Source: Bugula neritina
Lineage: Eukaryota > Animalia > Bryozoa
Direction: 5' to 3'
Length of the DNA stretch: 64,000 nucleotides
Assembly: GCA_964035545.1 (NCBI GenBank)
Contig: OZ037767.1
Coordinates: 23,452,628-23,516,627 of the forward strand
In this document: piece by piece, positions 7,302 through 43,032 of the stretch
Position numbering within the stretch: position 1 is the first letter of the stretch
How the letters are laid out: each line of letters begins with the position of its first letter
Program-made: the position numbers and the translations under genes
The notes under the pieces: model-generated
Told to the model about the DNA's origin: nothing
Databases searched by the model: none
Seen by the model: the letters and a program-made list of their open reading frames with translations, nothing else

Positions 7302-8999
7302 ATCTAGCTGAGCTTTGAGAATATTTGTTGGAACTGTTTACACGGCTACATTCTTCTGGACTGTTCTTGTTTGTTGAGAATGATGTATTTGGACTACTTC
7401 AGTGCACAAATCTGTAGAATCTAGAATGGATGGGAAGATTTCAAGTCAATAATGTTTTGCAAATGATAATTTTTTTTAATGTAAAGACAAAGGGTATTAT
7501 TAAATCTTATGCTATATATTCCAAATGCAAATTACAATCTTTAACTATTGTTAGTAGCAGCGTGGGTTATCATAATTGAATAAATTGCAAGGTGTAGTGA
7601 GACTCAGCCACTGATTACATCGAATATAATGGATTTTCCAAGAGTGAAAAACAATAATAAGTAAAGCCCAGCAGAAAAATGCACCTGAGTTACCGAAGAA
7701 ATAACACAGTTCTATATAAGTCACTAGTTTTGTTACACATGTGTTTATAATGTCAAGAAACCAGCTTATATTCAACATAAAATTTTGTACTTGATGCACC
7801 AAAAATACCAGGAATGGCGGACCACCTAACCAATACTTGAGAAAAAAACATATCAAAAACACCAGAATATTGACAAGAGCTGAGTACAATTCACTGCTCC
7901 TACAAGGTGGTGTTCAGATCCTAACCAAAATCCAAGCCAAGCAGTTCAGCCATTAACATTACTAATTAGAATAAAATTACCATCTACTTGATTTGGCTTA
8001 ACGTAGCCAACTGATATGGACTTAGTTTTGAAACTAGAATTAAACTGGTGCAAGCAAGTCAAACCCCAAGTGCCCAATACCTTTTAATAATAACTCAAAT
8101 ATCTACTGACTATTTAAATTATAGCCTTATGATCAATATGTTTTTCTTTTATACAGGATTATGGGTTGCAGCATTCAACACTAAAAAAGTAAAAATATTT
8201 TATAAATAGACGGTATTAACCTAAAAGTGAATGAAACATCAACTAAGGTGAAACGCAGCATGGTTGAACCAAGACAAATTTGTTCTTCAATAAAGACCTC
8301 AAATGACCAATTTTTTGATAGTTATATACCGTTTGCTTATATAAGAGCTACTTTAATGATGCTATGCATAAAAGAAATGATTTAATCAAAAACAAAAATG
8401 AGCAGCATGAATATGGATCATCTGAAAACCTAGCAACATTAAAATGAGACCTAGAATATTTATCACACATCCTGTTTTTTATTTTTAACTATCCAATCCA
8501 TTTCCCCACATTAGTGCAACGACAGAAATTTATGTCTTACAACCAATGCTTTAACTGATAATTAGACTTTAGCACTTAGCTATGCTTTATTTTAGTTTTA
8601 GCCTTTAATAAACAATTTGAAGATTAGCACCTGGAAGTTAAACTCTACTATTAAAACAAGCAGAGAGAAATAGTAAATGGCATCTTCATGCACCACTGAA
8701 ATTGAAAAGTAAAGTGAGAGCATTTGTGGGTCACTCTTTCTGAATGAATCTAACCATCCATCTCCTACTCAAAGCTGAGTGTACTTAATGTATTGATAGT
8801 CAATGATAATAGCTAATAGGTCCAACTTCAGTAATTTTCCGGTGTTCGATTTTTCATGGGCCAACGTTTAGTGATTTGATTGAAAATCCTGCCACTGCCA
8901 AAACTTATCAAAAGCATATTTGGTTATATTAAGTTTTCAGCTAATAGATTATATAAATTAGAGGTCAAATTCAGAAGGAACAACCTCAGAAAGATAAGA

Positions 9000-9275
9000 C
9001 CTCATTCACATTTGCCGTACCTTACACCCCAACAGCAAATATCAGCCATTTTTAATAAAAACTTCAACATGCTATTAGGCTATTAGGTACGATCTATGAC
9101 AATTCATTGGACAATCATATCCAATGAGTTGAAGTAAAAGTTTTTCTGTCCAATAGGAGCCCACTGCAACTTGTTTGAATCAAGCAGTGCTTGATCCTTG
9201 AACGTATCACAACACAGTACAGGAAAATCAGACATTTGTAAAAATGGCTGATATTTGCTGTTACCGTGAATGAGG
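9000..9275. mobile_element. Degenerate MITE with nested inverted repeats
   Basis: Outer IR CCTCATTCAC (9000-9009) / GTGAATGAGG (9266-9275); inner perfect 24-bp IR AACAGCAAATATCAGCCATTTTTA (9031-9054) / 9239-9262. TSD not clear. Confidence 0.6.
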
Positions 9276-9597
9276 AGGAAAACTTGAGAGACATGAAAAC
9301 AAAATGGTGGATTCTAGAAATTTTGGCAATTTCTTAGTTTAACAATTATCATTTTGAGTAGAGAAAAATTACTCGCCTCTTTAAATGAAAACAATGTTAC
9401 CTATGTAAACTATGGAGATGATCATGTGACCAATCACTTTTCTTACAGCTTCCTTAATGCTTCGCATTTTATAATAATATTCTTTATCAAATTTTTGAAA
9501 GACCCTTTATGAATTAAAATTACCTGCACTGTTTCATCAAATACAGTAGTTGAATTTAAACAAATATAAAAGGAACTAATTGTAAGCCAGTGTTTAA

Positions 9598-9788
9598 GAG
9601 CAGAAGTGGTCTAGCTGTTGAAGCTCTGGCATGGTGTGCTCAATGTTCATGGGTTTCAATCCCAACAGAACCATTAGTGGTGTCTGGAAAATTATGATTG
9701 TTTCTTTAGCACAGCCTACATAGTCTTTGGCCCACTTAGCAAACCCTTGCCATTAGGGGATCTTACTGGTATACAGACAAAAAAAAAA
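9598..9788 (+). mobile_element. Degenerate tRNA-derived SINE-like relic
   Basis: A-box-like AGTGGTCTAG, B-box-like GGGTTTCAATCCC (9651-9663), A-run at 9779-9788; body resembles 41115-41280. Confidence 0.45.
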
Positions 9789-12700
9789 CATGAGTTCTAG
9801 AACAGAAAGGGACTTTCTGAGATTCTCTAATGCTAAATTAAATAGAAGGTGCCAGTGATAACAGTTACACAGTTATTGCCCGCCAGCTTATGCAGTTGGC
9901 CAAACTCCAAAGCGAATAACTGACAATACTAACACTCCCTTACAACATAGGTGATGACTAGGAGTAAACCCTGAAATACACTTATTATGCTGCTTTTTCC
10001 TGTTTCAGTACAAAAGAGATTTAGCATGTTATTTAAGCCAAAAGAATAGTTGAAGTTCTCTTACAACACGCAAAAAATAAGAGAGAAGCAAAATTACTAT
10101 TTAACCTAGAACAGTCTACTCAAAATGGTGATCAGATCACATATTTGGAATACCATACTTTATCATTTAGGTGCAGTAATGGAGAAAGGTTAAATAGCTC
10201 AAGTTCTTTAACTTTCAGACAAACTAATATTCAGCAGTAGCCAACAAAGTCATAGCAAAGTTAATTATACTCTTCAAAATGACTACCTAGGACCTAGGTC
10301 CTAGTATAAAGATAATCTGATGACATAAACACCAAAAACTCATCTTTACGGCTGTATTACCCCATAAACCTCCACATATAGTTCAGCAGCAATGAAAGTT
10401 GGTAACAACATAGAAATGGCACCCAATTAAATGCCAAACATTAAATCAATTAGGTGCTATAAGTGCAAGAAACCAACTGCAGTTTAAAGTAGAATCTTTA
10501 TAACTGACTACTGAAATTAACAAGTGACCTCTACTAAATATGGCAATGATGGTTCTATGCTAGCAAATAAATAAATAATGTGCAACAATATATAATATTA
10601 TAAATTGTATGTGTTGAAATTTCACTAAGCCAATACAGTAGTTGTAACAGTCTGTTGATGCGTTAGGGTAACTGGCAGAGTAAGACTTACCAAGTTACTC
10701 TTAAATTTAACGATTTAGAGTGTTACTACTAGTTGAGTATTTTAAAATCAAAACACACTACACTCACACTGTTAGTGTTGCACTGACAGTATAAGTATCA
10801 GTGTTATGTGCATTATGATTATCATTATGATATTGATTATCAGTATAAAAACTAATAAGTATTAATATAATAACAGAACTTTCTACTTTTCATGGTGATA
10901 ATATTAGTAATAGCAACAATGCTACTATAACTATTACGATCAGTATTACTATTACTATAAATATAGGTTAACATAAGTATAACTATTAGTATTAGACTTT
11001 AATTAAACTAAATAAATATAAATACAAGTACTATAATCATAATGATAATAAAAATCATATTATTATTAATCTTATCAACTGTTGATAATTATTATTCTGA
11101 CATTTAACACACTGAATCTGATACAGTATCAGTGTGAGTATAAATATCACCACCACTATCAGTATGAGTAACACTAACAGTTAATACTAAAACTAAGTAT
11201 ACTACTAATAGTAATAGTAATAGTTAGTGTAATACTAATAGTAATCAATTGGTAATAGTAATACTAATACTAATAGTAATACTAAGTCTAATAGCAATAG
11301 TTATACTTTTACTTCAACCACTAGTAGTTTTTAGTATAACTATAACTATAAGTGTTGGACTAAGACTTGGTTGTTTCACTTGACTGGAGCTCACAGGTAC
11401 TTAAACTTAAAGTTTAAGCTAGTTATATTGAATAATTATAATCATAATGACAATGAATATGATACTAATTTATTAAATTAATATTAATTATATTTATTGT
11501 AACTATTACTAGTACAGTATTAGTATTAGTATTACTATTACTATTAGTATTAGTATAACTATAAGTAGTAGTATAACTATAAGTATTGGTATTACTATTA
11601 GTATTATTCATGGTAATCAATATTCAATATCATGATTTTGATTTCCTAACATCAATTTTTTCATATAACAATAATCATAATGGTGAACCCTATAAAGAGT
11701 CATTCTATGTTTTCCAACTAAGTGTTGAAACATACTTATTCACCAGATATCATGCATTACAACTACACGTACCGTCAGCGTCGTTGATGCTTGGATTAAA
11801 TTGTTTGTATATAATAATAATAGAAACTGAAAGCTCTATTTCCTTAGTCAGTTGTGTTTTCTTCTGAAATAGCCCCGGTTTTTCCAAAAGTATGATTTCC
11901 TAAGAATTTTTCTGCATTAGATAGGATAACTCTAAGGCTTAAAAAGATATTTTTATAATCGTGTTCCTGACCAGCTTCTTCATTAGTGGTTAACTGTGTT
12001 TTAAATATTATGCTTTATAAATTAACAATTTTTGCTCCTTTATTCATCCTCTAAAGAATTTTCTGTTTGCATGCTTTTTGCTTTAATGTACTTTGTTGTG
12101 CATACTTTCTTTACAACATCAATAGAAAAATAAGGCTGTTTTTTCTCAATCTGTTAAAATCTTTTCTACCAATTTGTTACAAAAGTACAACTCTATGCAA
12201 ATCTGCACACTATATTATAAATATTTGGTATTTACTAATGCAATGACTGACTGCAAATCATTCAACTAAGAAAATAAATCCTACGGCCAACAACTAATGA
12301 TGGGCAGTTAGTCAATTAGGATAGTCAACAGTTCTAACTTTTGAACTAATTACAAATAGGTTTACTCATAATCCTACAATTTTTTTTCAAGCTGAAATTA
12401 TATCATATAGTTGATTCCTTGTTTCTAATTAAACTCTATCACAAAATCTAGTTATAGGTTGTGACTTTTAAAATAATAAAACAGTTACTGTCGGTTAACT
12501 TCATTAAGTTCTATGATATAATATAGAACTAAGTCTCTATTATCCATCGTAGACTGTTTAAGCACTGCCAGTTAAGTCTCTTGACTATTTCTCCAGAAAA
12601 TGGCAAGTTATATAAAAAGCAACAGTTTTACTGACAGTTGAGTAATTGACAGTAATTGTTTAACCATAGACTAAGGGCACTAACGTGTTGTTTTGCTAAA

Positions 12701-13054: not shown

Positions 13055-16000
13055 TCAAAAGAATGCCCTACATCTTTCATGAAGTACCTATAAGAGACAA
13101 AACAACCTATCAGTCAAAGTATTCATGAAAACTACCATTACTTCTTTACAAACAACCAAAGGATTCATTTTTAATTTCAATTTTATGTAATTAAAATAAC
13201 AAAAATATTTTCAACTGAATAAAAAATTATCTGACTAGCAGAACTAACAGAATATAACACCTTCAAGTGCTGTGTATACCTTACGAGTTCTTTCTTGGAC
13301 GATTTCTTCAACACCTAACTCGGATTGCAGTGATCGCAACTAAAAACATAAAAATTGACTGAGCTGAAGTATGCAGGTGAAAATAAATGGTGAGATTTTT
13401 TTACCATGATAAGAAATCTCTTTTCACTTTTTGATAACTTCAAAATATGTAAATTTCAAGGTTGTTACAGTAGGGCCAAAACGCCCAACTACATAACTAT
13501 TAATGCTAATGGACAGAAGTTAAATCACAATTTGAGCTTCTTAAAAAGTCATTACACCAAAAAGATAGTAATGGCCACCCTTTGCTTTGATCTAAGGCAA
13601 AATATTAAAGTTGGCAAACACCTAGCATAGAACTACAATCTTGGAAAAGAAATTTATTATTCAATACTGCAAATACTATACCTTGATTTGAGCATTACTG
13701 AAAGCTTTTCTTGCTTGTCTTTCATTTGAAAAATCTGAAACATCTTTGGCTTTCCTAAGTCTTTCAGTATTTTCAGCGTGATATGAGATACATTTCTTTA
13801 TTGCTTCTTCCCGAGCCTTATGTGATTTGTCTAGCTACAGAAATAACTAAGCAATATTACTGTAATGCATTTCTTTTCGTGGATAACCATGGCCATCATG
13901 AAATTTTGCATTCTTGTCAGTGTATTGCATATTTCTAACATGTTAGAATTAAACCTAATATAATGAAAGTTAGCAATTTTTAGGTTATAACAGCTTGCAA
14001 CTTAGCATAAACTCAAATGTAAAAGCAAGTATAAAGTCATACCAAATTATATACAAACATTTAAAATAGTAAGAGCCATTACAAAGTTTGCATTATAGTT
14101 TCAAAAGAATAAATTTTCCGTTCTAATGAAGTGCACAAATCTTTCGACATTGGTTGAATGAACAGCCTTCAGTCAGCTTTGTAAAAAATTGGCAACTTAT
14201 GAGTTGAAAAGCAATTCTCAGCAACAACTAATATGTCTAACAATAGTGTGGAAACCCGAAACTTGAAAAAATATATATTATGTAAAATATTTTCCAGTAT
14301 ACTCACAATATTACTGAGAAAACTGCAAAAAAAAAACAAAATATGTTTCTACAGAACTATAACTTTCCTAAAAAATTTGGAAATAAAACTATATAGATGA
14401 ATATTGCGAAAACTAAATGGAAATTTATTAATTATGAGAATAATGGGCTACAGTGAAGTATTATAAAATGAAGTCAGGTAGTGTTTAACGACATAGTTGA
14501 GAGTTGAAAGTGATGTGTTAGGATATAATGATACATAACAAACTTTCGGCACTAATAATTTCAATGACTTGATCTAACAAATACAGCTGGGCTACCACCA
14601 CTCAATCTGGTGACATCATTCACTGAATTTAACTCTCACAATTTCTACTGAAACCATAAGTTACCAACATGACTGTTTTTAGTTGCAAGTGATTTAGTTT
14701 TGGGTGAACAATTACCACTGTTTCTTATTCACACTAGGCTATGTAGCAGTGCTTACATTTTCTTTAATTTCTTTACATTTTTCTTGAATGTTAGTTTCCT
14801 TTCTAAATGACTCAATGGATGGAATGGTGGAATTAATTAAATTTATAATAATGTCATCATTCTTCCTTTGTCTATCAAGCAAATCCTAAAACATAAACAA
14901 AAAATAGTCAGATTACTAAAGAAATATTTGGAGACCAAAATAATTACTTTTATGAAACAAAAGCTTCAGCTCAAAATTAGTTTGAAACAATTTTGAATAT
15001 CCCTTCCCCTACAACATCATATGACCAGGAGCTTTTCATGCTTCGAGAGTGTGACCTCAGTGCAACCAAGAAGATACACTTTATTCAATATAAAAGCATA
15101 AAAGAAAAATTGAAGTTGTACTGCAAAAAACTGCAAGATGTAGAAGCATTCTAAGAGCAAAGGGTTACTATAAGCTTTAAAAGCACTAACAATAAAGTAG
15201 AAGCATGTTTCTTGTGGAAATAGATTAACACTTCTATAATCTGGACCGTATTTGAAAGTTGTCACACGGTCTACATTAAAAAATATATATATATAAGGTA
15301 AAGTGCTAAAGTTTATAACTTGGGGCATATATTTTAGTCAAAGTAAAAAATCAATATTTATGTCATAACGCTATACTTGGCTTCTATTGAAAAAAAACAA
15401 AAAGTCTTAAAATAAATAAACATTTCAATACTGGCATTAGCAAAATTAAATAAATAAAATATAAAATCTGATTAAAAAGTAAAATATTAATATTTAAGAC
15501 AATAACAGAATATAAAATAATTATAATATATTAAGTGTCAAATTTAAAATTAATGATGATATATTATTATTGCATAAATTTGAAAGTAAAACTGTGAGTG
15601 GGATTAAAATTCGAGTGTATCAATATAAACATTAATAATATTAGTATTACTACTATTAATATTAAATTTTATCTTATCTTTACCATGAACTATTTTCCTT
15701 TTATAACCATGTCTAGTACTATAACTATTGGTATAAAAATTATCATTACTATTAGTATAACTGAAACTTACCAACTATCAAAATTAAGTTTAACTAATAC
15801 TATAAGTATAACTTAAACTATGTCTATGACTATAGGTATGTGTTGAAGAAAACAATTAATATTATATTCTTATTAATATTCATAGTTTTAGTAATACTTA
15901 TACTAATAGAAATACTGATCACTGTCTGATGGCCATGGTGATATTGATAATTATAGTCAAAATTAAAATATTTACTTCAAGTTCAATGTTCATGTTGACT

Positions 16001-19000
16001 TTGTCTCTTACTATTAGTAAAACTAAAAATAATGTAATCTTAAATTCGATGAAAACCACAAAGACAGTCAGTGTCACTACCAGTATGAGTACCGGTGTGG
16101 CGGTGTCACAATTCAAATTGAAATTGCCAAACTGAACAGAGAATCAAAATGGTCAAACTGAAACTCACTGACAGTGCGCGTGGGTGACTCTCAGTCTGAA
16201 AATTCAACCCGGGCTACACGTTTGACCATTTTGACTTTATTTTGTAATTTGCATTTAGTTTTAGTTTTACTGATTATCATTAAGATTTATTTTAAGTTTT
16301 ACGTTTATAAATATATTGTAGTAAGGACGTAATGCGCGCGTCACCCGTATTCCTTCAGCCTATCCAAGTGCGTCACGTGATAGCCCTCAGTTAGTAGTAG
16401 TTTTGCAGTAGAGCGAGCGTGCTAACTAAGCGAAGATGTAATCTCTAATCTGTGTACGTGCTGTATCTTTTATATAATTAGTAGTAAATAAACTTGGAAA
16501 CTTTTACCTAAATACTTTATTGGTGTAGATAAATAGACATAATTACAAGCTAGGAACCCACGCATAGTAGTTACATAACTTACTACAGTGGTGGCAGCGG
16601 TGGGATTTCTAGCTACTGTATGAGAACAATGAGAAGTATTAGAACATCATGGACGAGGGAGTAACTTCAATGGAAGGAGGTGAGCAGAACATTATTATAG
16701 GCCCTCTCGGAGCTGGAGAGGAGGTATATAGGAACACGTTGGAGGTTCCCGTGTTCACAGGCCGCGAGGATATTGAACAATTCGTTCAAGAATTCCGTGA
16801 AGCTGCAGCCATTACAAGATGGCCGCCAAGAGTAACCCTTACAAAACTGCGGATGGCACTGACGGGAGAAGCCAAGCCGTACGGGTGGAAGCCTAGCATA
16901 AACGGGATCATTGCTACACTACGGGCCCGTTTTGGCATGCCCGTTGCCGTCGCCAAGTCCAGGCTGCGAGGATTACTCCGCAAGACATGTACACCGCTTT
17001 CTGACCACGCCACTCTGGTGCAGAGACTGGCACGGACCGCGTATAGCGATCTGCCAGAAACACACAGACGGCACTACACATTCGAAGCCTTTGTACAGTC
17101 TCTCAACTCTTTGGACTTCCACCACCAGTTACAAGCCAAGGGAGTGACCACAATCGAGGCTGCAATCCAGGAGAACAAGGCCTACGCTGGAGCCGAGCGA
17201 CTCTATAAGACGGAAGAGACCACTCCCCAGACCTCTAGGGAACCAGACCATCCGGTCCACACAGCTGCCGCGACCACTAAACCCCCCATAGAGATGGAGA
17301 TAAGCCGCTTGATGACTAGACTGGGACAATTGGTGGCGACGATAACATACAACCACTCAAGGAAGAGTAAGAGGACGGCAGCAAAACCCCCCAGACCTAT
17401 GATGCGACGCTGGGAAAGCGGCAACCAGGGGCACCGCCACCTGAGCGGCCCACGATTCAAACGGCAGCAGAAACCACAACCTCCCCGGAGACCCCCAGAG
17501 CTCCGCGGGCACACACAGAGAGGAAAACGGGGTGGATGTCGCCAGGAGCCCGTACGGGCCCAGCAACACACCCCCCGTCAATGGCAAACACCTCGCCGAA
17601 CCAGCCAACCGGGTCGACCACGAGACCCCTTCTCTTTGCCTCTCACCAACCGCTTCAGTCCGTTACCAGTAATGGAACAGACCAGCGAGGCCCCTCAGGG
17701 CATCGGGGAGGATCAGAACGCCTCCCCGCAAGGAAACTCTCACCGGCCCCGCAAACCGCGGAACAAACGGGCACAGCCCCGTTCGGCCGAGACCGAGCAC
17801 GCTGGGGGAGTACGGGTACAACCTCACGGAGGCAGCTACTTCTTGCCAGGGAAGGTGGCCGGTAAAGCTGTCACCTTCCTGCTAGACTCCGGGTGTACCA
17901 CTAATCTCCTCAGCCGTCGGGTCTTCGACACCCTCCCTCTCAAGGAGAGGGGAGCCTTAGCTCCCTATACCGGGGAACCGGGCACCCTAGCTGACGGGTC
18001 ACGGATTCCTTTCTACGGTATCATAGAATTGGCTGGGCGCGTCCGCGACCAGGCCATTCAGGAAACCTTCGTCATCAGTCCACTGGAGGAAGATGCCATA
18101 CTGGGGATGCCGTTCTTGAAGAGACACGGGTGCCATATTGACTTTAGCAAGTCAGCCATGCTAATGGGCGGCAAAGAGCTCACCTGCGTCGACAAGTTCG
18201 GTCGTCCTCTAGCGGGAGGTGTGCAGGTAGTACGCAACTGTACTATACCCGGCCGCTCCCGGGCTACCGTTCACTGCAGAGTGAACAATAGCCAACTCTC
18301 GGGGCTAGGGGTTGTCGAAGGTGCGCACACTAGAATCCAACTCGCCAGCAGTCTTAACCGGCTGACTGACCGAGGAGAGATCTTGGTGCAGTGTGTCAAC
18401 CCCTTCTCCGAAGCGGTACAATTACCGTCAGGATCCATGCTGGGTCGCTTCCACTCCATCCAGGAGGAGGATATAGGGCTGTCGCTGGGAGCTGCGACGG
18501 AAGGTCCCCAACAGAGCCCGTCAGTTAGGCGGGGGACCGTCCCATCACACGTCAAAGAGCTATACCAGGCAGCGTGTAACGGCTGCACGGGCAACGTGGA
18601 ACGCCAGACTATGGCTCAGTTGCTACGTGATTATAGCGACGTGTTCAGCAGTGGGGACCATGACGTCAGCCTGACCACGGCCGTCCGTCATGAGATACCG
18701 CTGGCTGCAGGGACTACCCCTATTCGGCAGCCCACTAGGAGGCTGGGACCCGAGAAGGAAAAGGAGGTCAGCCAACAAGTCCAGGATCTTTTGGACCGCG
18801 GCCTCATCGAGCCAGCACATAGTGCGTGGAGTTCACCGGTCGTTCTGGTCCGAAAGAAAGACGGCAGTTGGCGGTTCTGTGTGGATTATCGCAAGCTCAA
18901 TAGCGTGACCATACAGGACGCCTACCCCTTACCCAGGATCGACGAATCTCTGGACGCCTTAGCCGGCAGCAAGTACTTCAGTACGCTAGACTTGTTGAGC

Positions 19001-22000
19001 GGCTATTGGCAGGTCCCCCTCAGCCCAGACGCCCAGGAGAAGGCGGCGTTCATCACGCGGGACGGCTTATGGAAGTGGAAAGTCCTCCCCTTCGGACTGA
19101 CTTCTGCCCCCGCCACGTTCCAGCGGCTCATGGAACAGGTCCTCAGTGGACTCCACTGGAAGACACTGCTAGTATACCTCGACGACGTCATCGTGATCTC
19201 CCCAGACTTTCAGACGCACGTCAGCCGTCTGCGGGAGGTCTTCGATCGACTCCGAGGCGCCAATCTGAAGCTCAAACCCTCCAAGTGCGCTCTCTTGCAG
19301 CCAGAGGTGAAGTACCTGGGGCACATCGTCGGCCGTCACGGTGTGGCGACGGATCCTGAAAAGGTACGAGCTATAGAAGATTGGGTAACCCCCCAGGATT
19401 TGACCGGGCTACGGGCTTTCCTGGGGCTGGTAGGGTATTACAGGCAATACATACCAGACTTTGCGGGGGTAGCGCAGCCATTAAACCGGCTCACCGCAAA
19501 GGGGGTGACCTGGCAGTGGACTCCCGTCGAACAGAGAGCGTTCGACTGCCTCAAAGGCCGCCTGCTGGAGGCCCCTATCCTGGCCTATCCAGACCCTGCC
19601 CTGGAGTACATCCTCGATACTGACGCCAGTGACCAAAATGTCGGCGCTGTGCTGTCCCAGGTGCAGGAGGGCCGCGAAGTAGTCGTGGCCTACTACAGTA
19701 AGTCTCTCTCGCCCACTGAACGAAATTACTGCACTACCCGAAAGGAATTGCTGGCAGTAATCAAGTCAGTGAAGCATTTCAGACCTTATCTATACGGCAG
19801 GAAGTTCCGCTTGCGGACCGACCACGCCTCCTTGATTTGGTTATGTAAGAGAGCAGAACCGCCCAGCCAAGTCGCCCGATGGCTCGAGGTCCTGGCTGAG
19901 TTCTCTTACCGGATCGAGCACCGACCCGGTAAGAAACACGGCAATGCTGATGGACTGAGCCGGCGACCGGACGAGGGGTGTAAACAGTGCCTCAACATCG
20001 AGAAGAGGGACGGAGGTCCTCCAAAATCCGAGTTGAGAGCACTGAACCACTCTGAAACGGAGTATGACTGGGACCAGGGTCAACTCCTACAGAAGGCCGC
20101 TACGCCCCCGGAGGCTATCCAACGCCTCCGTGCCAATCCTGTCTTGGCTGATAACGTTAGGGAGCTACGAAGACTCCAGGAGGACCTCCCTGGAGTGGTA
20201 GCCGACGTATATCGTGCCAAAAAGGAGGGGCGACGACCCAGTGAAGAACAACTGCGGCAGGGATGCACCGAGTTACGGTCGTACTGCCAACGTTGGGACT
20301 CCCTGCGGATCGGGCCAGATGGTCTGCTGACCATCACAGTGGCTGCTCACAACAACCAGTACGGCAGGAAGAGGGTGATCTGCCCAGCCGCCATACGCCG
20401 GGAGTTAGTATGGGACACCCACAAGCAAGCCCACGCCGGGGTGAGCAGGGTGCTCTCCAAGTTACAACTCCGGTGGTACTGGCCCGGCATGGAGCGTGAG
20501 GTGCGGCGTAGAGTCAAACAATGCGAAATCTGCCAGGCCAGCAAGCATGGCCGTCTCCCTGGTGAAGCGGGACGGCGTAGGCTATATGCTGGAAGGCCGT
20601 GGCAGGTGGTAGCTATCGACCTAGTCGGACCCATGCCCGTCACCCCCAGAGGAAACAGTTGGATCCTAGTATTAACCGACCACTTTACACGGTGGGCGGA
20701 TGCCCTGGCTATTCCAGATGCGTCCGCCCCCACAGTGGCCAGGGTGCTGGATCAAAATGTATTCTGCTATCTTGGATTACCTGAGCAAATACATTCGGAC
20801 CAGGGGGCTCAATTCCAGTCCCAACTGTTGAGCGACCTCTGCCGCCTCTGGGGAGTAAACCAAAGCAGGACCACCCCGTACCATCCTCAAGGCAACGGGG
20901 TGGTGGAACGCAACAATCGCATGTTGGGCGATGCACTGCGCAGTCTGCTCCTCGGCCGGGGTCAGGAGGAGTGGGATACGGTACTGCCGCAAGTCATGCG
21001 GGCCTACCGTAGTACACCACACACCAGTACGGGGGAAACCCCTAACCTCCTGATGCTCGGTCGAGAGATGCGAGTGCCTGACCACCTCACATACCACATC
21101 CCAGAGCAGGACTATACCATCCACGAGTATGCCAGTAAATTGATAGAGGACCTGAGGGCCGCACACGAAATACTGCGGGCGAAGCAGTGGCAGGTACGGC
21201 GAGAGGACTCTCAGGAACCACCTCTCTATCAAACTGGGGACTGGGTGTGGATGGTCAACTACCGTAGGCGTCGAGGACAAGCGGCTAAGCTCCAGCCTAA
21301 GTTTGTGGGACCCTACGTAGTAGTTGAGGCTATGCCCAATCATACGTACAAGTTGGAGCGATCTGGACAGGTCTCTGTCCAGAACGAAACCCGCTTGAAA
21401 CCGTATTGGGCTAGCCCAGGAGCAGCAGGAGCAGCCCCCCCGTTGTTGGAGCCCAGGAGGCAGACAGTAACGCGTGGGCGGCAACGGCATGGACCAGAGT
21501 ACGAAGTGGTCGTGCCGCGGGGAGAGGACTTGGTGAGGCAGGAGACGCCACTCCCACCAACGGAAGTGCGCCCACCGCCCCCAGTACCAAGTCTACCCCC
21601 ACCACTTCCGTTTCCGCATCCGCGTCCGGAAGTGCAAAACCCCCCCGTGGGAGGGGCTCCATCTGGAGACAACAGCGGAGAGGGGAACACCACCACCAAC
21701 GGCGGGCCAGAAACACCACAGGTGGAGCAAAATAGCCCACCAGTGAGTACGCCGCCCCAACCAACAGCTACAACTCCCTCTCCAGCTGATACGTCACCTC
21801 CCCTGGAACGGGGACAGCGTACTAGACAACCCTCAGCATACCTTAAAGACTACATATGTGACCGTGTTACAAACGGCAGTTATGAAAGTCTAGCTGGGCG
21901 CCGTACGGAAGGACTGGCAGCAAAGCGTGGGAGTTGTGAACACCACGGAAATCTCAACTTTTGCGAAGGCGGAGTAGTAAACAAAACTACTACGCCCGGG

Positions 22001-24089
22001 GCAAATAGTTCCAGCCGTGCGCAACAACCACGCTGCCCAGTCTTTTCGTACGCTGACGTTGTCAAGGGAAGACGCATTCAAACTCAATCCACGGACATCC
22101 AAGCTTGAACGCTGAGTATGATTACAAATACCGGGTTCTCAGGTAAGCTTGCTCTGAGCTAACATTTCCACTCATGGAAACCAGTCTACCATCAGTCAGT
22201 TCTGATTTAATCGCCTTGATTGAATCACAACTACTGGGGACTGAGTCTTACGTGAAAGGCGACGAGAACATAAAGATGGCCGACGATCTACTAGATCTGG
22301 AGCTTGACACTATGTCTCTCTGTCAGTCTACACGACACGACTCAGTCCCTCGAGTGCTATCTGAAAAGATGTATGACTCCCAGACTAGTAACAGTCGGTT
22401 GTCATCAGAATTATGGTGTAAAGATCATATTCGATCTAACAGTAATTCTGCTCTTTTAGATACCGCTCTCTCTCCTCTCTCTGGTGACATGCCGTCACTA
22501 GAAATGGCTTGGAACGAGGAACCCGTTCCCACTACTCTTCCGGAGGCACTCCTACAACAATCATGCTGGGTTACAACAGATACAGAAACACTGATACGAG
22601 AGCACAAAGGAGACGACCAATGCACCACCTGCCGTTTATGCCAGCTTCACTTCACTACCCCACGAAGACTTCGAGTTCATATTCCCCAACATTATTTCAC
22701 CACCTTTTGTCCCTGTGGTGAATATAGTTACCACAGGGACTACATCCTCCGTCACCAGCGAACTATGGGATGCCATATTGGACACCTGTTCGAAGTCGAC
22801 GAACCCTCCTTTCCACAATTCCTTAATCTCATCCGACCGTTCATATCAGACCCAGTTCGATATGAACGGCTGCGTCAGGAGTTCCCCGCACCCAGGACCA
22901 TCACACAGGGACCCTGCCCTAAACCACCCGGATATAGGAAACCACGCGTATCCCGTTCCTCACCCCCCGCACGCACAGTGCCCCACCCCGACTCCATACC
23001 AAGAGTCGTGTTACGACGCATCGATATACCACAGCGATGGCGTCCCTCCCCCCCTGTCTCCCCAAGGCCTTCTCGTAAACGGCGTTGGCCATCTTCATCC
23101 CCCAACCGACACTCTGCCCCTGCCAGGAATCTAGGCGAGGCAGAAGAGCGGATACGAGAATTAGAGAAAGAGGTGCAAAGACTGACACCGAGAATCTCCG
23201 CCGCCGCATCAGAACTCCGGGCCCTCTCTGCCTCTGTAGCCCGAATGAAAGGAAGTGCTTGAAGATGATGTCCCTCCTCTCCCTATCCGTGATGGTACAG
23301 CAGGTGGTGCCCCATTACAGACCCTTCTCACGCCGGTGCTCACAAACAATTACTCAGTGTAACAATATAGTAACCTACCAGTATACAGCTCTACCTCTAC
23401 AAACTATCCCTTATAAGTGCCTCCCGCCGGTGCCATTGTGTATTTACTGTTATATTTTTTTATATATGTATATGTTTCTTATTACTGTACATAGCCATGT
23501 TTTTCTCTTATGTGCCACACGCTCTCTCGGTTTTTTTTATATAGTTTTATAACATTTTATGTTCGAATTTATTGTATCTGTGTTATCAGAAAGTAGGGCT
23601 TTCTGCTGGGGGGGGGCGGTGTAGTAAGGACGTAATGCGCGCGTCCCCCGTATTCCTTCAGCCTATCCAAGTGCGTCACGTGATAGCCCTCAGTTAGTAG
23701 TAGTTTTGCAGTAGAGCGAGCGTGCTAACTAAGCGAAGATGTAATCTCTAATCTGTGTACGTGCTGTATCTTTTATATAATTAGTAGTGAATAAACTTGG
23801 AAACTTTTACCTAAATACTTTATTGGTGTAGATAAATAGACATAATTACAAGCTAGGAACCCACGCATAGTAGTTACATAACTTACTACAATATTAATAT
23901 TAATTAACGGCAATAGAATTTCTGTTAAACCTTAAAACCTAACAATAATGAAATAAAATGATTTAAACTACTCCATTATCTTTATCGTGACATAATGTTA
24001 AACTTCAAGCAATGTACCTGAAATTTCATGTAATCAGAACAAAGTTCTACATTTTGATTTTCCTTCTCCGAATTTATGGAGGCGGACAT
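13055..24089 (-). CDS. MIX23: Mitochondrial intermembrane-space protein MIX23 (CCDC58), 148 aa, 5 coding exons
   Basis: Exons 24089-24018, 14885-14757, 13834-13682, 13339-13280, 13087-13055; all GT-AG, all phase 0. Translation (..CSDYMKFQDLLDRQRKNDDIIINLINSTIP..KCKEIKENLDKSHKAREEAIKKCI..LQSELGVEEIVQERTRKVLHERCRAFF) matches CCDC58 as I recall it, including four conserved Cys and QSELxVEE/ERCR. Confidence 0.9.
16317..16587 (+). repeat. 5' LTR (271 bp)
   Basis: TGTAGTAAG...CTTACTACA perfect 9-bp terminal inverted repeat; differs from 3' LTR at 16343 (A vs C) and 16486 (A vs G); contains GTCACGTGA, TATATAA and AATAAA. Confidence 0.98.
16589..16607 (+). promoter_or_regulatory. Primer-binding site complementary to the tRNA-Leu (AAG/UAG type) 3' end
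   Basis: TGGTGGCAGCGGTGGGATT starts 1 nt after the LTR and is the reverse complement of the metazoan tRNA-Leu 3' end AATCCCACCGCTGCCACCA. Confidence 0.9.
16649..22108 (+). CDS. Gag-Pol polyprotein (1819 aa, single frame): capsid-like Gag, aspartic protease, RT, RNase H, integrase with GPY/F, Pro-rich tail
   Basis: Motifs: VPVFTG (gag), LLDSG and ILGMPFL (PR), WRFCVDYRKLN, LPFGL, YLDD (RT), TDAS..KELLAV..TDH..NADGLSR (RNase H), H..H..CEIC, IDLVGP, SDQG, VERNN (IN), KFVGPY. Confidence 0.97.
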   Translation: MDEGVTSMEGGEQNIIIGPLGAGEEVYRNTLEVPVFTGREDIEQFVQEFREAAAITRWPPRVTLTKLRMALTGEAKPYGWKPSINGIIATLRARFGMPVAVAKSRLRGLLRKTCTPLSDHATLVQRLARTAYSDLPETHRRHYTFEAFVQSLNSLDFHHQLQAKGVTTIEAAIQENKAYAGAERLYKTEETTPQTSREPDHPVHTAAATTKPPIEMEISRLMTRLGQLVATITYNHSRKSKRTAAKPPRPMMRRWESGNQGHRHLSGPRFKRQQKPQPPRRPPELRGHTQRGKRGGCRQEPVRAQQHTPRQWQTPRRTSQPGRPRDPFSLPLTNRFSPLPVMEQTSEAPQGIGEDQNASPQGNSHRPRKPRNKRAQPRSAETEHAGGVRVQPHGGSYFLPGKVAGKAVTFLLDSGCTTNLLSRRVFDTLPLKERGALAPYTGEPGTLADGSRIPFYGIIELAGRVRDQAIQETFVISPLEEDAILGMPFLKRHGCHIDFSKSAMLMGGKELTCVDKFGRPLAGGVQVVRNCTIPGRSRATVHCRVNNSQLSGLGVVEGAHTRIQLASSLNRLTDRGEILVQCVNPFSEAVQLPSGSMLGRFHSIQEEDIGLSLGAATEGPQQSPSVRRGTVPSHVKELYQAACNGCTGNVERQTMAQLLRDYSDVFSSGDHDVSLTTAVRHEIPLAAGTTPIRQPTRRLGPEKEKEVSQQVQDLLDRGLIEPAHSAWSSPVVLVRKKDGSWRFCVDYRKLNSVTIQDAYPLPRIDESLDALAGSKYFSTLDLLSGYWQVPLSPDAQEKAAFITRDGLWKWKVLPFGLTSAPATFQRLMEQVLSGLHWKTLLVYLDDVIVISPDFQTHVSRLREVFDRLRGANLKLKPSKCALLQPEVKYLGHIVGRHGVATDPEKVRAIEDWVTPQDLTGLRAFLGLVGYYRQYIPDFAGVAQPLNRLTAKGVTWQWTPVEQRAFDCLKGRLLEAPILAYPDPALEYILDTDASDQNVGAVLSQVQEGREVVVAYYSKSLSPTERNYCTTRKELLAVIKSVKHFRPYLYGRKFRLRTDHASLIWLCKRAEPPSQVARWLEVLAEFSYRIEHRPGKKHGNADGLSRRPDEGCKQCLNIEKRDGGPPKSELRALNHSETEYDWDQGQLLQKAATPPEAIQRLRANPVLADNVRELRRLQEDLPGVVADVYRAKKEGRRPSEEQLRQGCTELRSYCQRWDSLRIGPDGLLTITVAAHNNQYGRKRVICPAAIRRELVWDTHKQAHAGVSRVLSKLQLRWYWPGMEREVRRRVKQCEICQASKHGRLPGEAGRRRLYAGRPWQVVAIDLVGPMPVTPRGNSWILVLTDHFTRWADALAIPDASAPTVARVLDQNVFCYLGLPEQIHSDQGAQFQSQLLSDLCRLWGVNQSRTTPYHPQGNGVVERNNRMLGDALRSLLLGRGQEEWDTVLPQVMRAYRSTPHTSTGETPNLLMLGREMRVPDHLTYHIPEQDYTIHEYASKLIEDLRAAHEILRAKQWQVRREDSQEPPLYQTGDWVWMVNYRRRRGQAAKLQPKFVGPYVVVEAMPNHTYKLERSGQVSVQNETRLKPYWASPGAAGAAPPLLEPRRQTVTRGRQRHGPEYEVVVPRGEDLVRQETPLPPTEVRPPPPVPSLPPPLPFPHPRPEVQNPPVGGAPSGDNSGEGNTTTNGGPETPQVEQNSPPVSTPPQPTATTPSPADTSPPLERGQRTRQPSAYLKDYICDRVTNGSYESLAGRRTEGLAAKRGSCEHHGNLNFCEGGVVNKTTTPGANSSSRAQQPRCPVFSYADVVKGRRIQTQSTDIQA
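22174..23262 (+). CDS. Accessory retrotransposon ORF2 (362 aa): acidic N-terminus, C2H2 zinc finger(s), Pro/Arg-rich basic region, C-terminal coiled coil
   Basis: Long ATG ORF inside the LTRs, 65 bp after the pol stop, in a different frame. CRLC-x12-HIPQH canonical finger, then CPC-x12-H-x5-CH; RPSRKRR; heptad-like LGEAEERIRELEKEVQRL..ELRALSASV. Confidence 0.8.
   Translation: METSLPSVSSDLIALIESQLLGTESYVKGDENIKMADDLLDLELDTMSLCQSTRHDSVPRVLSEKMYDSQTSNSRLSSELWCKDHIRSNSNSALLDTALSPLSGDMPSLEMAWNEEPVPTTLPEALLQQSCWVTTDTETLIREHKGDDQCTTCRLCQLHFTTPRRLRVHIPQHYFTTFCPCGEYSYHRDYILRHQRTMGCHIGHLFEVDEPSFPQFLNLIRPFISDPVRYERLRQEFPAPRTITQGPCPKPPGYRKPRVSRSSPPARTVPHPDSIPRVVLRRIDIPQRWRPSPPVSPRPSRKRRWPSSSPNRHSAPARNLGEAEERIRELEKEVQRLTPRISAAASELRALSASVARMKGSA
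23608..23619 (+). promoter_or_regulatory. Polypurine tract
   Basis: GGGGGGGGGCGG immediately 5' of the 3' LTR. Confidence 0.85.
23620..23890 (+). repeat. 3' LTR (271 bp)
   Basis: 269/271 identical to the 5' LTR by manual comparison; TG...CA ends. Confidence 0.98.
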
Positions 24090-27400: not shown

Positions 27401-30029
27401 CTAGTGTTGGTCAATATTAGAAAAAATCCTAACAGTAATGAACTGTCGAGAGTTTTTCTTGTAGCAAATTTCATTTCTACCTTTTGGATACCTTCGAATG
27501 AAGTAGAATCTTATGTGGACTTTACACTATTTGATATTTCCTAACCAGATCTTAAATTTAGTAATTCCAATCAAACAAAGTTTTTGCATTAAAATTCAGA
27601 ATTTTTCTATGTAATTATTGATGGTCTCAGCTTATATTTGTATTACGATAATTTTTCTTTGTGATGCAGCTATAATTCAGATTAATATTATAAGGTGTAT
27701 ATTTACATGCCCACAGTCCCGTCTATACTTGCGTCTATACTTGCGACAACAAGTAGTAGTAATAAATATTCTCAACTGCTGATAATAAATCATAATAATA
27801 AATTGTAACAATATTAATATTGATGATAATAATAATATGCTGTGTGTTTGTTGGTTTTCAGTCAGACTGTATGATATGAATACTCAACAGTGTTTTGTTG
27901 GAAGCAATCCTGGTGATCAGCACTCTGCCCCTGTTAACTCTGTGAGTTCTACTCTATATATCTGTTAACTCAGTGAGTACTACTCCTATATATCTGTTAA
28001 CTCAGTGAGTACAACTCCTATATATCTGTTAACTCAGTGAGTACAACTCCTATATATCTGTTAACTCTGTGAGTACTACTCCTATATATCTGTTAACTCA
28101 GTGAGTACTGCTCCTATATATCTGTTAACTCTGTGAGTACTACTCCTATACATCAGTTAGTCGCAGTAGAGGTTTACTCTAAACTCTCACACTGTCCTTT
28201 ACTAAGTAAACAAAAGTGCAGTCCATCTTTTATAATAGTAGTGTGCTTTCTTCTTTAAGCTTTTCTAGTATACTGCATATTTTGGTTTGTCCTTATAAAA
28301 TCATCGTTGTTTTCTTTTTTATTAACGTTAGTGCTGCTGGAGCTCAAATGCAAAGGTCTTTGCAACCGGTTCAGCTGATGGTAACATTAGACTGTGGGAT
28401 GGAATAAGTAATAAGTGCTTCTGCACATTCACTGGAGCTCATGGTGGCTCGGAAATTGTGTCTGTTACATTTTCCAGAAACTCTAAGGTGCGTCTAATTT
28501 ACTTTACTCTTATTTGCAAAGTTGGTTTAAGTTGCTAATGGTAATAGTTTTCATACCCTATATTTCAATTTATTTCTATCTAGCATTTGCTCTAAAATTG
28601 CTAAGATTTTTTCAGCTACGGTGTTTAATTTTTTTAATTGCTTCCATACAACATTTTGCTATTTAATTGAATTGTTATAATCGGAGTTTAAATGAAGTTT
28701 CGATAACTTTGAAATAAAGTATTCAGAAGTGCAGTAACTTGTTTATTAAACACATACAGTATTTGCTGTCTGCCGGGATGGACTCTATGGTGAAGCTGTG
28801 GGAACTTTCTACATCCAGGTGTCTCATAGCCTACACAGGTGCTGGCAGTACTGGCTCAATGACCACCAAGACTAATGCTGTCTTCAATCACACTGAAGAC
28901 TATGGTAAGTGCAGGCAGTGTCTACATAGATGTTGTGCAGCTCCTGCTGTTCCTGAAATATAACAGCACAGTTTTGCAATAAGAAATTGGTGAAAGCTGC
29001 TGTCATTTCAATCAATAGTTACTAACTGTTTTTCATGGCAAGCATCATAATGTCACACCAGAATATCGAATAGCTTGTACATTCCAAGTTTCTTTTGCTT
29101 TGAACTTGCTTTTGAGTTTTAGCGGAAATCAATTGCATATACATTTACACATATCTCAATATGCTTAAAATAAATATAGATGCATCTAGACAGTATTTTC
29201 CTACTGACTCTATTTCCTCTACTGCCTTTATGAATGCTCTTAATCTGTGTCTATTTCATGTTTTATTCAGTTTTGTTCCCTGATGAGAAAACCACTAGTC
29301 TCTGTTGTTGGGACTCAAGAAATGCTGAGCGACAGCCTCTACTTTCTCTCAGTAAGACTTACTCATAACTTTCAATGTATGCCTAACGGTGTTTAAACTG
29401 CCCTTTTTTACTAGTCCAGCCTCTGAGAGTAATGCCAACAGTGTGGAAATCTTAGCTAACTCTCTTGGGCTGCTGTAACATCTCTCATGATCTATTCCCA
29501 CTTATAAGTTTATATTTTTACTCTTTACCTGCTGAACAATTGTAGGTATATTTTGTTTTCTTGAGTTATATTGAAATCTACTGAGAAGTTTCTTTTAAAC
29601 TTCAGGTTTTTAGGGTAAACTGTAACAAGTTTTTAAATTATAATTGCTGTCGTAGCTTGATAATTACCGCTAATTTTTAAAACCACAAGTGGGAAGACAA
29701 TTTTTATTGCAATTTTTTCTAGTTTAGAATCTTACTTACTTAGATATAAACTAGGTGTTGGGATGCTACCGTTACAAGCCTTCAAATTTCGAAAATATGA
29801 AAGTCCAAATTTCAAATAACTAATTGGTTTGCTTTCACCTGTATTCATCTGTTTCAACGTTCACACTGCTCCACGTACTTCTTTGATTTTGACATGCTGT
29901 ACTTTTGTAGGTCATAACAACGTGGTGACCGCAATGCATCATTCTCCTGTTGCTGCCGCGTTTATTACATGTAGTGATGACCAGAGAATGAGATTCTGGC
30001 ACAGTAGAAGTGCTGCTGAAAGTCTATAA
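24463..30029 (+). CDS. CSTF1: Cleavage stimulation factor 50-kDa subunit (WD40), 11 coding exons
   Basis: Exons 24463-24527, 25129-25256, 25662-25826, 25953-26116, 26404-26526, 26904-26979, 27862-27941, 28332-28487, 28760-28904, 29271-29351, 29911-30029; GT-AG, in phase. Motifs [70 protein letters not shown]. Confidence 0.96.
27931..28153 (+). repeat. 32-bp tandem repeat x7 spanning the CSTF1 exon 7/intron 7 junction
   Basis: Unit CTGTTAACTC(A/T)GTGAGTAC(T/A)ACTCCTATATAT starts at 27931 (31 bp), 27962, 27994, 28026, 28058, 28090, 28122. Confidence 0.95.
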
Positions 30030-37458: not shown

Positions 37459-40400
37459 ATGAATTCCTTCAAAGCACATCTAACAAGGTATTTTAAGTTA
37501 TATTACAAGTGCTGTTAGGCACACACAAGCAGTTCAAATATCTGCAATCAATGACGAATGCATATTAAAAAAATATTTTTATGTATGTTTGAGTTTGGGG
37601 TTGGGATGAAAGGGTTGGGGGTTTAGGTTTGGGGTTTGGACAAATTTAACATCAGTGCGCCATTTTTACCTACTTACCCATTTGTGCTATTATTACCTGT
37701 GCCATTATTTCCTGTGCCATTTTTACTGTGCCATTTTTACCTATAATCAATCTCAATCTTCAACCATCCTTAAGTTTAGAATCATCAAAAATTCCTAACT
37801 AGCATAAAGGTGAAAGTTATTTATTACCAGCTAAGATAGTGAAATGTAATAATTGCAATTATATCGGTTTTAGCAAGGAAGAGAGAAAGGCCCAAATGCT
37901 CAATAGAGTTCAACAATCAAAATATGAAAAAGAGTTGGCAAATATCTCAATTGAAAAGAGGTTTTCCCAGCATTCAGCTGGTTGCAACAAAAAGATGATG
38001 GAACAGAAGTTTAATTTAATCAATCAGAGCAGACAAAGAGTGGCTCAAGAAAAAACTCAGAGAAGAAATCTGGAAGAGGTTGTTATTATGTTACTTTATT
38101 TTTATACTTTGAAACATGTTTATGCTGTAGCATTTACTCTGAATAGAAGAGAATGGTACAACGTTGCCATATTTACAATGATCCATGCTAATGCATTTTT
38201 GCATCGCAGTAACTAGGCCCCTAGTGTAGCTTACAGTATATGCAGAACCAGCCAGTGCAAATAATTTTTATGGGACATTTTACGTATAATGAAGTGTTGA
38301 ATTGCAAAAATATATTCAATATTTCTCACTACCCAGATTCAGCTGATGGCAGAAAAATTCTTCACGGAGCAGAAGAAGCGGGATGCTCTTGCTTACCACC
38401 GATCAGAGACAGCTGATTTTATTGGCTCAATGACTGCCTCGAAGTTAAATCAACTTCTTCAAACGTCTCTCCCAGAAACCTTCATAGACAGGATGTTAGG
38501 TGAGTGACAGCAAACTCAACTGGCAGCATAGCAATATTTATTAATAGTATTTAGTAGTTACTACAAATTGATAATTTCTATAACTGTTTGCATGGTTTTT
38601 GTTTAATAAAATTTTCTTAGCACTTATAAACAATTAGCAACTCATTGAATTCCAGAAAACATCTACACTAAAAATAATTAAAATTACATTTAAAAGTTCA
38701 TGTTTTTATGCCTACATTTTAAAATGTTTCTATATGTCTATATGCTGATATGTTTACACGTTTTAAAGCTTATATACTTACATCATGTTTATACATTTAC
38801 AATTGTTATGCTTCTATGTTTATATTATGTTTTGATATGCCTTAATGTGCATATGTTTACATCATGTTTATGTGTTTATATTATGCTTATATGTTTGCTA
38901 TAGGACAAGAGAAAGCACGGCAGCAAAAACAACATAATGCAAAAACTTCAAAAGCTTTTCTTCAAGGAGTTCGACGTCCACGTACCTTTTTCGATCTAAT
39001 TCAGGTCTTAAGAGAAGAGGGCAGAATTAAAATGGGGCAGTTTGACATTGAGGATAAAACAGGTGATGGTGGAATTCCCAAAGTTAAAAGGCGGATACCT
39101 TTAGAAAGCAAGGTATAAGCTGACACTATTTTTGCACTCATGGTATTATAACCATGCAATAGTTTGCGTATGCAGTGTAGAAATGTTCCTACTGTGTATG
39201 CATAATATAGGTGTTCTGTCACCTCATTACTATTATATAGTCCTAATATCACTCTCAAGTGTCTTCTGCAGTTAGATGGAATGAAAAGCAATAATCTACT
39301 GAGATAATTAAAAACTCAACAACTATTATTACAGAATACAAGTAGCTTATCATAAAGATGGTAGTGTTATGGGACATACTGCGGTATTATAATGGACACA
39401 TCTAATATAGTATTATGGTGTATAGTGTATACACAGCAGTGTTATAATGTACATGCAGCAGTGTTATACTGTGCGCATATCAGTGTTATAATGTATATGC
39501 AGTAGTATTATGGTGTGTATCCAACAAGTCTCATAATATTTGCCATAGTGTCATAGTGTCATAGTCCATGTGTCATATGTATATCATGCATATGTCAATA
39601 GTGTCACAGTGTCATAGTTAATGTGTCATATTTTGAAAGGTGCAGTTCCATAATGTTTGCTTCTCAAAGAAAAGTTTAGATTTAATAATTAATTAATTAA
39701 TCCATTAATCATCAATAATTACTTATAAAGTTAATATTGTTCCATCAAAATATTTCAACTGCCACCCCCTCCCCTATTACCATTACCTGAAAGTTGTTAT
39801 CTCACTAGCTGATATTTCTGCTTAAGTATAGTAACCATAGCCACAATGATAATTTAATTTATTTCTTGATACTTATGGTGTGAAAGCTAGAAGATGGTGA
39901 AAATGAGTTTGTTAGTGCAGCTTAATACATTGGCAGAGGTATGGAAAGTTAGAAAATTAACGTTGTATTCTACCTTCACTATGTTTAGCAAACATTGACC
40001 CCTATAGGGCTTTTAAACTGCAAAGACAGAATTAAAACTTAAAACATATCAGTTTTGAAAATCAATAAGACTAGTAACGATGTTTTAGTATACGTTTCAC
40101 TCGAATGTATGGTTTCCAAGGCCTGGTGTTTGTAAATATATAAAAACAAACAGATATTATAGGAATTGCCTTTCTCTAAAGAATAGGATTATAAAGCAAT
40201 GCTTAAATTAACAATTACAAAGAGACTAGAAAAGTTGATTCTTAAATACTCTACTGTTGAGTATTAGCACAGGCATCTGCAATATCCTGTTTGTAATTGC
40301 ATAGGGTTAGGTACCAGGATAATATTTGATTAGCTAAGCTTTGGCAATCACTTGTTTCTAAAAGGCGATTGTCAAACAAACGATTAATTTTGCAAATAAG

Positions 40401-42778: not shown

Positions 42779-43032
<254 letters not shown>

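What the first reader, a model, noticed from the sequence alone, without database searches (positions are those of the whole stretch)
22174..23262. Gypsy element carries a transcription-factor-like zinc-finger/coiled-coil gene in the env position
Seen: an intact 362-aa ORF between pol and the PPT. It has an acidic/Leu N-terminal segment (MADDLLDLELD), a canonical C-x2-C-x12-H-x3-H finger and an adjacent atypical C-x-C-x12-H-x5-CH finger (22630-22776), a Pro/Arg-rich region with NLS-like RPSRKRR, and a C-terminal heptad repeat (about 23131-23250). No signal peptide or transmembrane helix is visible. Known: extra 3' ORFs in animal Ty3/gypsy elements are typically Env or other membrane fusogens; C2H2 fingers are not a standard component. 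Inference: a nuclear, dimerising nucleic-acid-binding protein that could be an LTR trans-activator, an anti-silencing factor (by analogy to retroviral Tax/Tas or plant VANC), or an integration-targeting or packaging cofactor.
Basis: partly seen in the sequence, partly recalled or inferred. Interest (0 to 1): 0.88.

Follow-up and report, generated by a model that had tools for sequence, protein, structure and literature searches.

The report
Gypsy retrotransposon's double zinc-finger accessory gene
A recently inserted, intact jumping gene of an invertebrate (likely a bryozoan) carries, where an envelope gene would sit, a long-conserved extra gene for a protein with two zinc fingers and a coiled-coil-like tail, which likely acts in the nucleus as a regulator of the element itself.

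Summary
Observation confirmed, with one correction. A young, intact Gypsy element (LTRs 2/271 mismatches, 4-bp target duplication) carries a 362-aa ORF2 65 nt after the pol stop. It has no membrane helix and is not Env. ORF2 belongs to an unnamed family: 74 close relatives and 168 clusters at 50% identity. Seven zinc ligands are kept in 58 of 64 distant relatives under 40% identity. A C-terminal heptad occurs in 77 of 103 tails (3.7% of shuffles). Residues 116-250 fold confidently (pLDDT 95) around a tandem C2H2-like pair. Several distant relatives sit in frame behind a Gypsy integrase tail or protease, so the module is an old cargo of several Gypsy lineages. The only named relatives are uncharacterised Bugula and Watersipora (bryozoan) proteins, so the domain is also in host genes; direction of transfer is unresolved. 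Most likely a nuclear, oligomeric DNA-binding regulator of the element (0.45); RNA export/packaging and integration targeting remain open. No function, expression, dimer or dN/dS was shown. The scan held no look-alike sequence, only unrelated analogues.

The parts
16313..16316 (+). target-site duplication, left copy (ATAT)
16317..16587 (+). 5' LTR, TG...CA, 271 nt
   Evidence: 2 mismatches to the 3' LTR
16589..16606 (+). primer-binding site starting TGG; assignment to tRNA-Leu is recalled, not from a call
   Evidence: sequence
16649..22108 (+). single gag-pol ORF, 1819 aa, order PR-RT-RNase H-IN-SH3-like, then a Pro-rich tail
16679..16680 (+). candidate splice donor 31 nt into gag (unproven)
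   Evidence: donor count not above chance
22109..22173 (+). 65-nt spacer with a candidate splice acceptor at 22142 (the same site also reads as a donor)
22174..23262 (+). ORF2, 362 aa, in a different frame from pol
22174..22518 (+). acidic, Ser-rich, mostly low-confidence N-terminal region (residues 1-115; 20 D/E against 8 K/R)
22519..22923 (+). folded double-zinc-finger domain (residues 116-250) with an N-terminal Trp/helix cap and a C-terminal strand plus helices
   Evidence: pLDDT 94.6, pTM 0.85
22630..22692 (+). finger 1, C2H2 (C153, C156, H169, H173)
22708..22773 (+). finger 2, C-x-C-x12-H-x5-C (C179, C181, H194, C200)
23065..23085 (+). basic NLS-like cluster RPSRKRR inside a Pro/Arg/Ser linker (residues 251-314)
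23116..23256 (+). C-terminal heptad helix (residues 315-361)
23608..23619 (+). polypurine tract
23620..23890 (+). 3' LTR
23891..23894 (+). target-site duplication, right copy (ATAT)

Best explanation
ORF2 is a long-conserved accessory gene of a Gypsy retrotransposon lineage, and its protein likely works as a nuclear, self-associating, DNA-binding regulator that would promote the element's own transcription. Shown: an intact gene in an intact young element; a conserved family; a fixed order of acidic region, double zinc finger, basic Pro/Arg linker and heptad helix; no membrane helix; position 3' of integrase in several distant lineages. Inferred: (1) it is made from a spliced or internally started subgenomic RNA here, and as the end of the Pol polyprotein in some relatives; (2) the basic cluster takes it to the nucleus; (3) the heptad helix dimerises it, so that two short finger pairs read a usable DNA site; (4) the site is in the LTR and the acidic region recruits transcription or chromatin machinery, giving trans-activation or relief from silencing.
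Confidence: 0.45

Rival explanations
1. Rev/CERV-like RNA factor: the protein binds the unspliced genomic RNA through its fingers and basic linker, multimerises, and licenses nuclear export or packaging, perhaps standing in for a nucleocapsid knuckle that this Gag lacks.
For: CERV of C. elegans Cer1 is a nuclear accessory protein with a candidate NLS, leucine zipper and Cys loop, required for genomic RNA export (PMC10309623, passages). This Gag keeps the spacing and His of a CCHC knuckle but none of the three Cys (no zf-CCHC hit). Candidate splice sites would create a need to export unspliced RNA. RNA-bound C2H2 structures are among the weak matches.
Against: No sign of homology to CERV: it was not compared directly and did not surface in any search. 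The splice sites are not above chance in number (2 against 0.88). An acidic N-terminal region is not needed for this role. The knuckle state was seen in this copy only.
Confidence: 0.25
2. Integration-targeting or pre-integration-complex factor: like the chromodomain of chromoviruses, the finger module tethers integrase to a chromatin or DNA feature, either fused to integrase or joined to it through the coiled coil.
For: The domain follows an integrase tail in frame in P0192, P0186, P0196, P0219 and, by a looser motif, P0180 and P0223 (6 of 147 upstream regions against 0.66 in shuffles).
Against: In this element a stop and a frame change separate the two. The close family keeps its own conserved start Met. 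A free-running Pol tail can fall in frame by chance in roughly this share of families (my estimate). Two clusters keep protease plus the module with no RT or integrase match.
Confidence: 0.18
3. Decoy or dominant-negative against host regulators: the element carries a copy of a host zinc-finger domain in order to titrate the host paralogues or their partners.
For: Annotated Bugula and Watersipora genes carry the same domain, some with a C-terminal heptad as well.
Against: The host genes have no known function. They fall at several places among element-linked rows in a poorly resolved, unrooted tree, which fits repeated domestication from elements equally well.
Confidence: 0.07
4. Passenger: a recently captured host exon or a chance ORF with no role for the element, or a degenerate Env.
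For: Host genes with the domain exist; many database relatives are truncated or frameshifted; dN/dS was not measured.
Against: Host proteins are only 29-37% identical. Ligands and architecture are kept down to 25% identity. Neutral change would close the frame. No hydrophobic helix and no Env family match. Broken copies are normal for transposons.
Confidence: 0.05

Closest known systems
CERV of Cer1 (C. elegans Gypsy/Ty3 element; PMC10309623, passages seen)
   Same: Non-Env nuclear accessory protein of an animal Gypsy element with a candidate NLS, leucine zipper, Cys-rich metal site and predicted multimers.
   Different: CERV shares sequence with Gag and has a C4-type loop; ORF2 is a separate gene 3' of pol with a C2H2 plus C2HC pair. 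No homology surfaced.
Non-Env ORF3s of bdelloid rotifer LTR elements (Vesta, Juno, TelKA; PMC5408684, passages seen)
   Same: Family-specific extra ORF behind pol in invertebrate Gypsy elements; said there to be typically expressed from spliced messages.
   Different: Those are GDSL esterase, DEDDy exonuclease, transmembrane or coiled-coil ORFs; the word 'zinc' does not occur in the main text.
Plant additional ORFs: Grande gene23, Retand TRP28 (PMC7264820, PMC11963269, passages seen)
   Same: Conserved extra gene between pol and the 3' LTR; nuclear or predicted DNA-binding; a regulatory role is proposed.
   Different: Antisense, plant-specific, no C2H2 fingers described in the passages; unrelated domains.
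Env-carrying errantiviruses, including bryozoan ones (PMC13524379, passages seen)
   Same: Ty3/Gypsy pol with an additional gene.
   Different: Their extra gene is an F- or gB-type glycoprotein, and bryozoan ones are GAG-ENV-POL; 'zinc' and 'C2H2' do not occur in the main text.
Classical tandem C2H2 transcription factors (e.g. Kaiso, ZBTB7A, Zif268)
   Same: Finger-1 pattern and the geometry of the finger pair.
   Different: Only two fingers, a short linker, C-x-C and C2HC in finger 2, extra cap elements, a coiled coil; no Pfam family reaches its cut-off on ORF2.
Uncharacterised bryozoan proteins XP_067940963/4 and XP_067944745 (Watersipora subatra), KAF6040922/3 (Bugula neritina)
   Same: Same domain, 29-37% identical; some have a C-terminal heptad.
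   Different: Annotated as host genes; two have the domain twice; three share an N-terminal region not seen in ORF2 (by eye). Function unknown.

Membership tests
Ty3/Gypsy LTR retrotransposon | paired LTRs with TG...CA, target duplication, PBS and PPT | tested here: met
Ty3/Gypsy LTR retrotransposon | pol order PR-RT-RNase H-IN | tested here: met
Ty3/Gypsy LTR retrotransposon | placement in a named clade by an RT tree | not tested
Env / fusogen ORF (errantivirus) | signal peptide and transmembrane anchor | tested here: not met
   maximum 19-residue hydropathy 0.93; 4 of 230 relatives exceed 1.8, one of them a read-through into non-coding DNA
Env / fusogen ORF (errantivirus) | homology to F- or gB-type glycoprotein | tested here: inconclusive
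   no such match in Pfam, PDB or BFVD; the folded part resembles zinc fingers instead
Classical C2H2 zinc-finger transcription factor | C-x2-C-x12-H-x3-H finger with beta-beta-alpha fold | tested here: met
   finger 1:
Classical C2H2 zinc-finger transcription factor | tandem canonical fingers joined by a TGEKP-type linker (recalled) | tested here: not met
   5-residue linker and C-x-C...C2HC second finger
Classical C2H2 zinc-finger transcription factor | sequence-specific DNA binding | not testable with these tools
   needs a binding assay
CERV/Rev-like export factor | binds genomic RNA and is needed for its export | not testable with these tools
   needs CLIP and genetics
Chromovirus-type targeting domain | fused in frame to the integrase C-terminus | tested here: not met
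   stop at 22106-22108 and frame change in this element; met in some distant relatives
Conserved accessory gene of the element family | relatives lie 3' of pol inside LTR pairs | tested here: inconclusive
   no DNA of relatives could be fetched; indirect support from integrase and protease fusions and one read-through into PPT-like sequence (E 0.011)
Conserved accessory gene of the element family | purifying selection | tested here: met
   protein level only; dN/dS not measured

The most novel reading that the evidence does not exclude
A whole radiation of bryozoan Gypsy elements encodes its own dedicated zinc-finger transcription factor, a Tas/Tax-like trans-activator or anti-silencing factor in a non-retroviral animal LTR element. 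It is made as a separate gene in some lineages and as the tail of Pol in others, and the host has repeatedly domesticated it into a phylum-restricted family of zinc-finger genes.
Probability: 0.25. Interest if true: 0.85.

Novelty: new variant of a known kind. Interest (0 to 1): 0.62.

Why it matters
Extra genes in animal Gypsy elements are mostly studied as envelopes. C2H2-type fingers are usually thought of as the host's tool against transposons (recalled). A conserved, element-encoded finger plus coiled-coil protein in a young intact element gives a testable candidate for a retrotransposon's own regulator. It also defines an unnamed protein domain shared between Gypsy elements and bryozoan host genes, a clean case for asking whether zinc-finger genes flow from host to element or from element to host.

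Tried and rejected
No genome is held for the window, so there was no genome-wide copy survey. Loci of relatives: none in viral contigs (3 pattern matches, 0 confirmed) or metagenome contigs (100 pattern matches, 0 confirmed; 0 matches). Searches for longer fused forms found none at 672-2000 aa and only 4 Wiz proteins, by generic C2H2 likeness, at 840-2395 aa; these searches are weak, since they missed the 1145-aa fusion P0156. No RNA holder was listed, which is no evidence on expression. A closer look at variants over ORF2 was not obtained, so dN/dS is open. Kaiso tops the second-look list but ties with about 40 other C2H2 entries within 1 Z, so I draw no methyl-DNA inference. The Atlas gave unnamed or generic C2H2 clusters. 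The domain tree did not finish its careful search; the quick tree of 116 rows has 59 of 113 forks open and no root, so direction of transfer is not claimed. P0137 and P0150 are repeat proteins without the domain and were dropped. The antisense ORF 20777-21490 was taken as a shadow of pol and not followed. The bacterial promoter scan does not apply. Literature: 8 answered searches listed no paper on this ORF. Repbase, Dfam, subscription journals and supplements were not seen and could hold a description.

Full report
Setting. The window is AT-rich animal DNA (about 32% GC) with one GC-rich insertion. That insertion is a complete LTR element: 271-nt LTRs at 16317-16587 and 23620-23890 with 2 mismatches, ATAT on both flanks, a PBS and a G-rich PPT. 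One 1819-aa ORF (16649-22108) holds protease, RT, RNase H and integrase in Gypsy order. It is a young, intact insertion. Contigs of run X1 match the right flank without a difference over 836 nt and pile up over ORF2 at a summed depth of about 8,000-11,000, against about 100 on a flank bin. The tool warns this is no copy number; I take it only as a sign of a multi-copy family that includes ORF2.

The observation. ORF2 (22174-23262, 362 aa) starts 65 nt after the pol stop in another frame; its frame is open only 27 nt upstream of the ATG. It has an acidic region (1-115), a folded domain (116-250), a Pro/Arg/Ser linker with RPSRKRR (298-304) and a C-terminal helix (315-361). There is no hydrophobic helix (maximum 0.93), and no Pfam family reaches its cut-off.

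Conservation. A search of 5.8 billion proteins gave 74 relatives among 6270 candidates, 11 of them covering 97% or more of the query at 52-70% identity; many others are truncated or frameshifted. A full HMMER scan with the domain gave 168 clusters at 50% identity, 150 listed; two were repeat proteins and were dropped. From the 234 proteins then held, 169 domain rows passed my filter (score over 25, over 75 positions). Seven ligands are all kept in 68 of 82 close rows, 12 of 19 middle rows and 58 of 64 rows under 40% identity. An eighth Cys or His follows in 79 of 82, 18 of 19 and 62 of 64, with loose spacing in the distant set. A Trp before the first helix and a Val-Asp strand after finger 2 are kept in about 90% of distant rows. 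In the 11 near-full-length relatives the fingers are 80% identical against 50-66% for other regions. Random substitution to 63% identity left the frame open in 1 of 2000 trials. Ascertainment favours intact proteins and rows are related, but ligand retention at 25-35% identity is not explained by that. The architecture travels with the domain: heptad in 77 of 103 tails of 90 aa or more against 3.7% of shuffles; basic cluster in 80 of 106; net acidic upstream region in 77 of 100 (uncontrolled).

Is it element cargo elsewhere? No DNA of relatives could be fetched, so the evidence is from proteins. P0192 has 224 aa of integrase core and SH3-like domain, 56% identical to this element's, in frame upstream of a domain only 27% identical. 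P0186, P0196 and P0219 share its integrase-tail motif (E 1e-7 to 3e-5), and a looser motif adds P0180 and P0223: 6 of 147 upstream regions against 0.66 in shuffles. P0156/P0237 and P0233 carry a Gypsy protease 37-39% identical to this one upstream, with no RT or integrase match, as internally deleted elements would. P0077, a close relative, reads on into sequence resembling this element's 3' untranslated region and PPT (E 0.011). These rows fall at many places in the domain tree. The module is thus most simply an old cargo 3' of integrase in several Gypsy lineages. For most rows the context is unknown.

Host link. Of 30 proteins looked up, four clusters carry a species name: two Watersipora subatra and two Bugula neritina, all uncharacterised. 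Both are bryozoans; the window's host is therefore likely a bryozoan, by inference only. These proteins are 29-37% identical to ORF2's domain, so ORF2 is not a recent capture. The two Bugula genes have adjacent locus numbers, and three of the host proteins share an N-terminal region by eye, which suggests a real host family. In the quick tree (116 of 193 rows kept after redundancy filtering; 59 of 113 forks open; midpoint root only) host rows sit in at least three places among element-linked and unlabelled rows. That fits repeated domestication but does not show it.

Expression. The only two strong donor-like words in the element are 31 nt into gag and in the pol-ORF2 spacer, where the same AG is the best acceptor-like site upstream of the ATG. 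Joining them would give a 16-codon upstream ORF ending 11 nt before the ORF2 ATG. The count is not above chance (2 against 0.88, 20% of resamples), so this is a lead. No RNA run was listed.

Mechanism. Acidic region, two fingers, NLS-like cluster and heptad tail make the layout of a small dimeric transcription regulator, and a gene kept by many element lineages should serve the element. I put LTR trans-activation or anti-silencing at 0.45. A CERV/Rev-like RNA role gets 0.25, helped by a Gag that has a knuckle-like stretch without its Cys residues. Integration targeting gets 0.18 because of the in-frame fusions, a decoy role 0.07, and passenger or Env 0.05. Every functional step is inferred.

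Comparison. Non-Env extra ORFs are known in rotifer Gypsy elements (PMC5408684), Cer1 (PMC10309623) and plants (PMC7264820, PMC11963269); Env-bearing bryozoan elements are described in PMC13524379; PMC8220671 mentions additional ORFs only in general. For each I saw search passages only, not whole texts or supplements. None of the passages describes a C2H2-type ORF behind pol. Eight answered searches listed no such paper, but Repbase and Dfam could not be checked. The scan's own notes held no look-alike sequence and several unrelated zinc-motif extra ORFs in fungal, euglenid and arthropod elements (unchecked), so the general theme recurs. Verdict: a real, apparently undescribed accessory protein family; a new variant of a known kind; interest 0.62.

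Noticed in passing
window about 17406-17450 (gag-pol residues about 253-267): A stretch with the spacing and His of a CCHC nucleocapsid knuckle but none of the three Cys; no Pfam knuckle hit. Whether this is a family trait is unknown.
   Followed up: partly
proteins P0156/P0237 and P0233: Gypsy protease fused in one ORF to the finger domain and heptad with no RT or integrase match: possibly non-autonomous elements that kept only these parts.
   Followed up: partly
proteins P0246, P0247, P0168: Bugula and Watersipora host-annotated proteins share an unnamed N-terminal region ahead of the finger domain (by eye).
   Followed up: no
window 50990-51988 (+): Single-exon 332-aa ORF with a Fam20C-like kinase match; it looks like four-jointed (label recalled).
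   Followed up: no
window 52175-53716 (-): 513-aa ORF with a non-LTR-type reverse transcriptase: a truncated LINE (type recalled).
   Followed up: no
window 15500-16113: High summed contig depth just left of the element in all three runs: probably another repeat next to the insertion site.
   Followed up: no
window 37622-37748 and 47220-47349: Inverted pair of a 130-nt dispersed repeat, 85% identical.
   Followed up: no
window 3042-3401, 27922-28177, 42717-43092, 45823-45997: Tandem arrays with 20-, 32-, 2- and 19-nt units.
   Followed up: no
window 20777-21490 (-): 237-codon antisense ORF over integrase, taken as a shadow frame of GC-rich pol.
   Followed up: no
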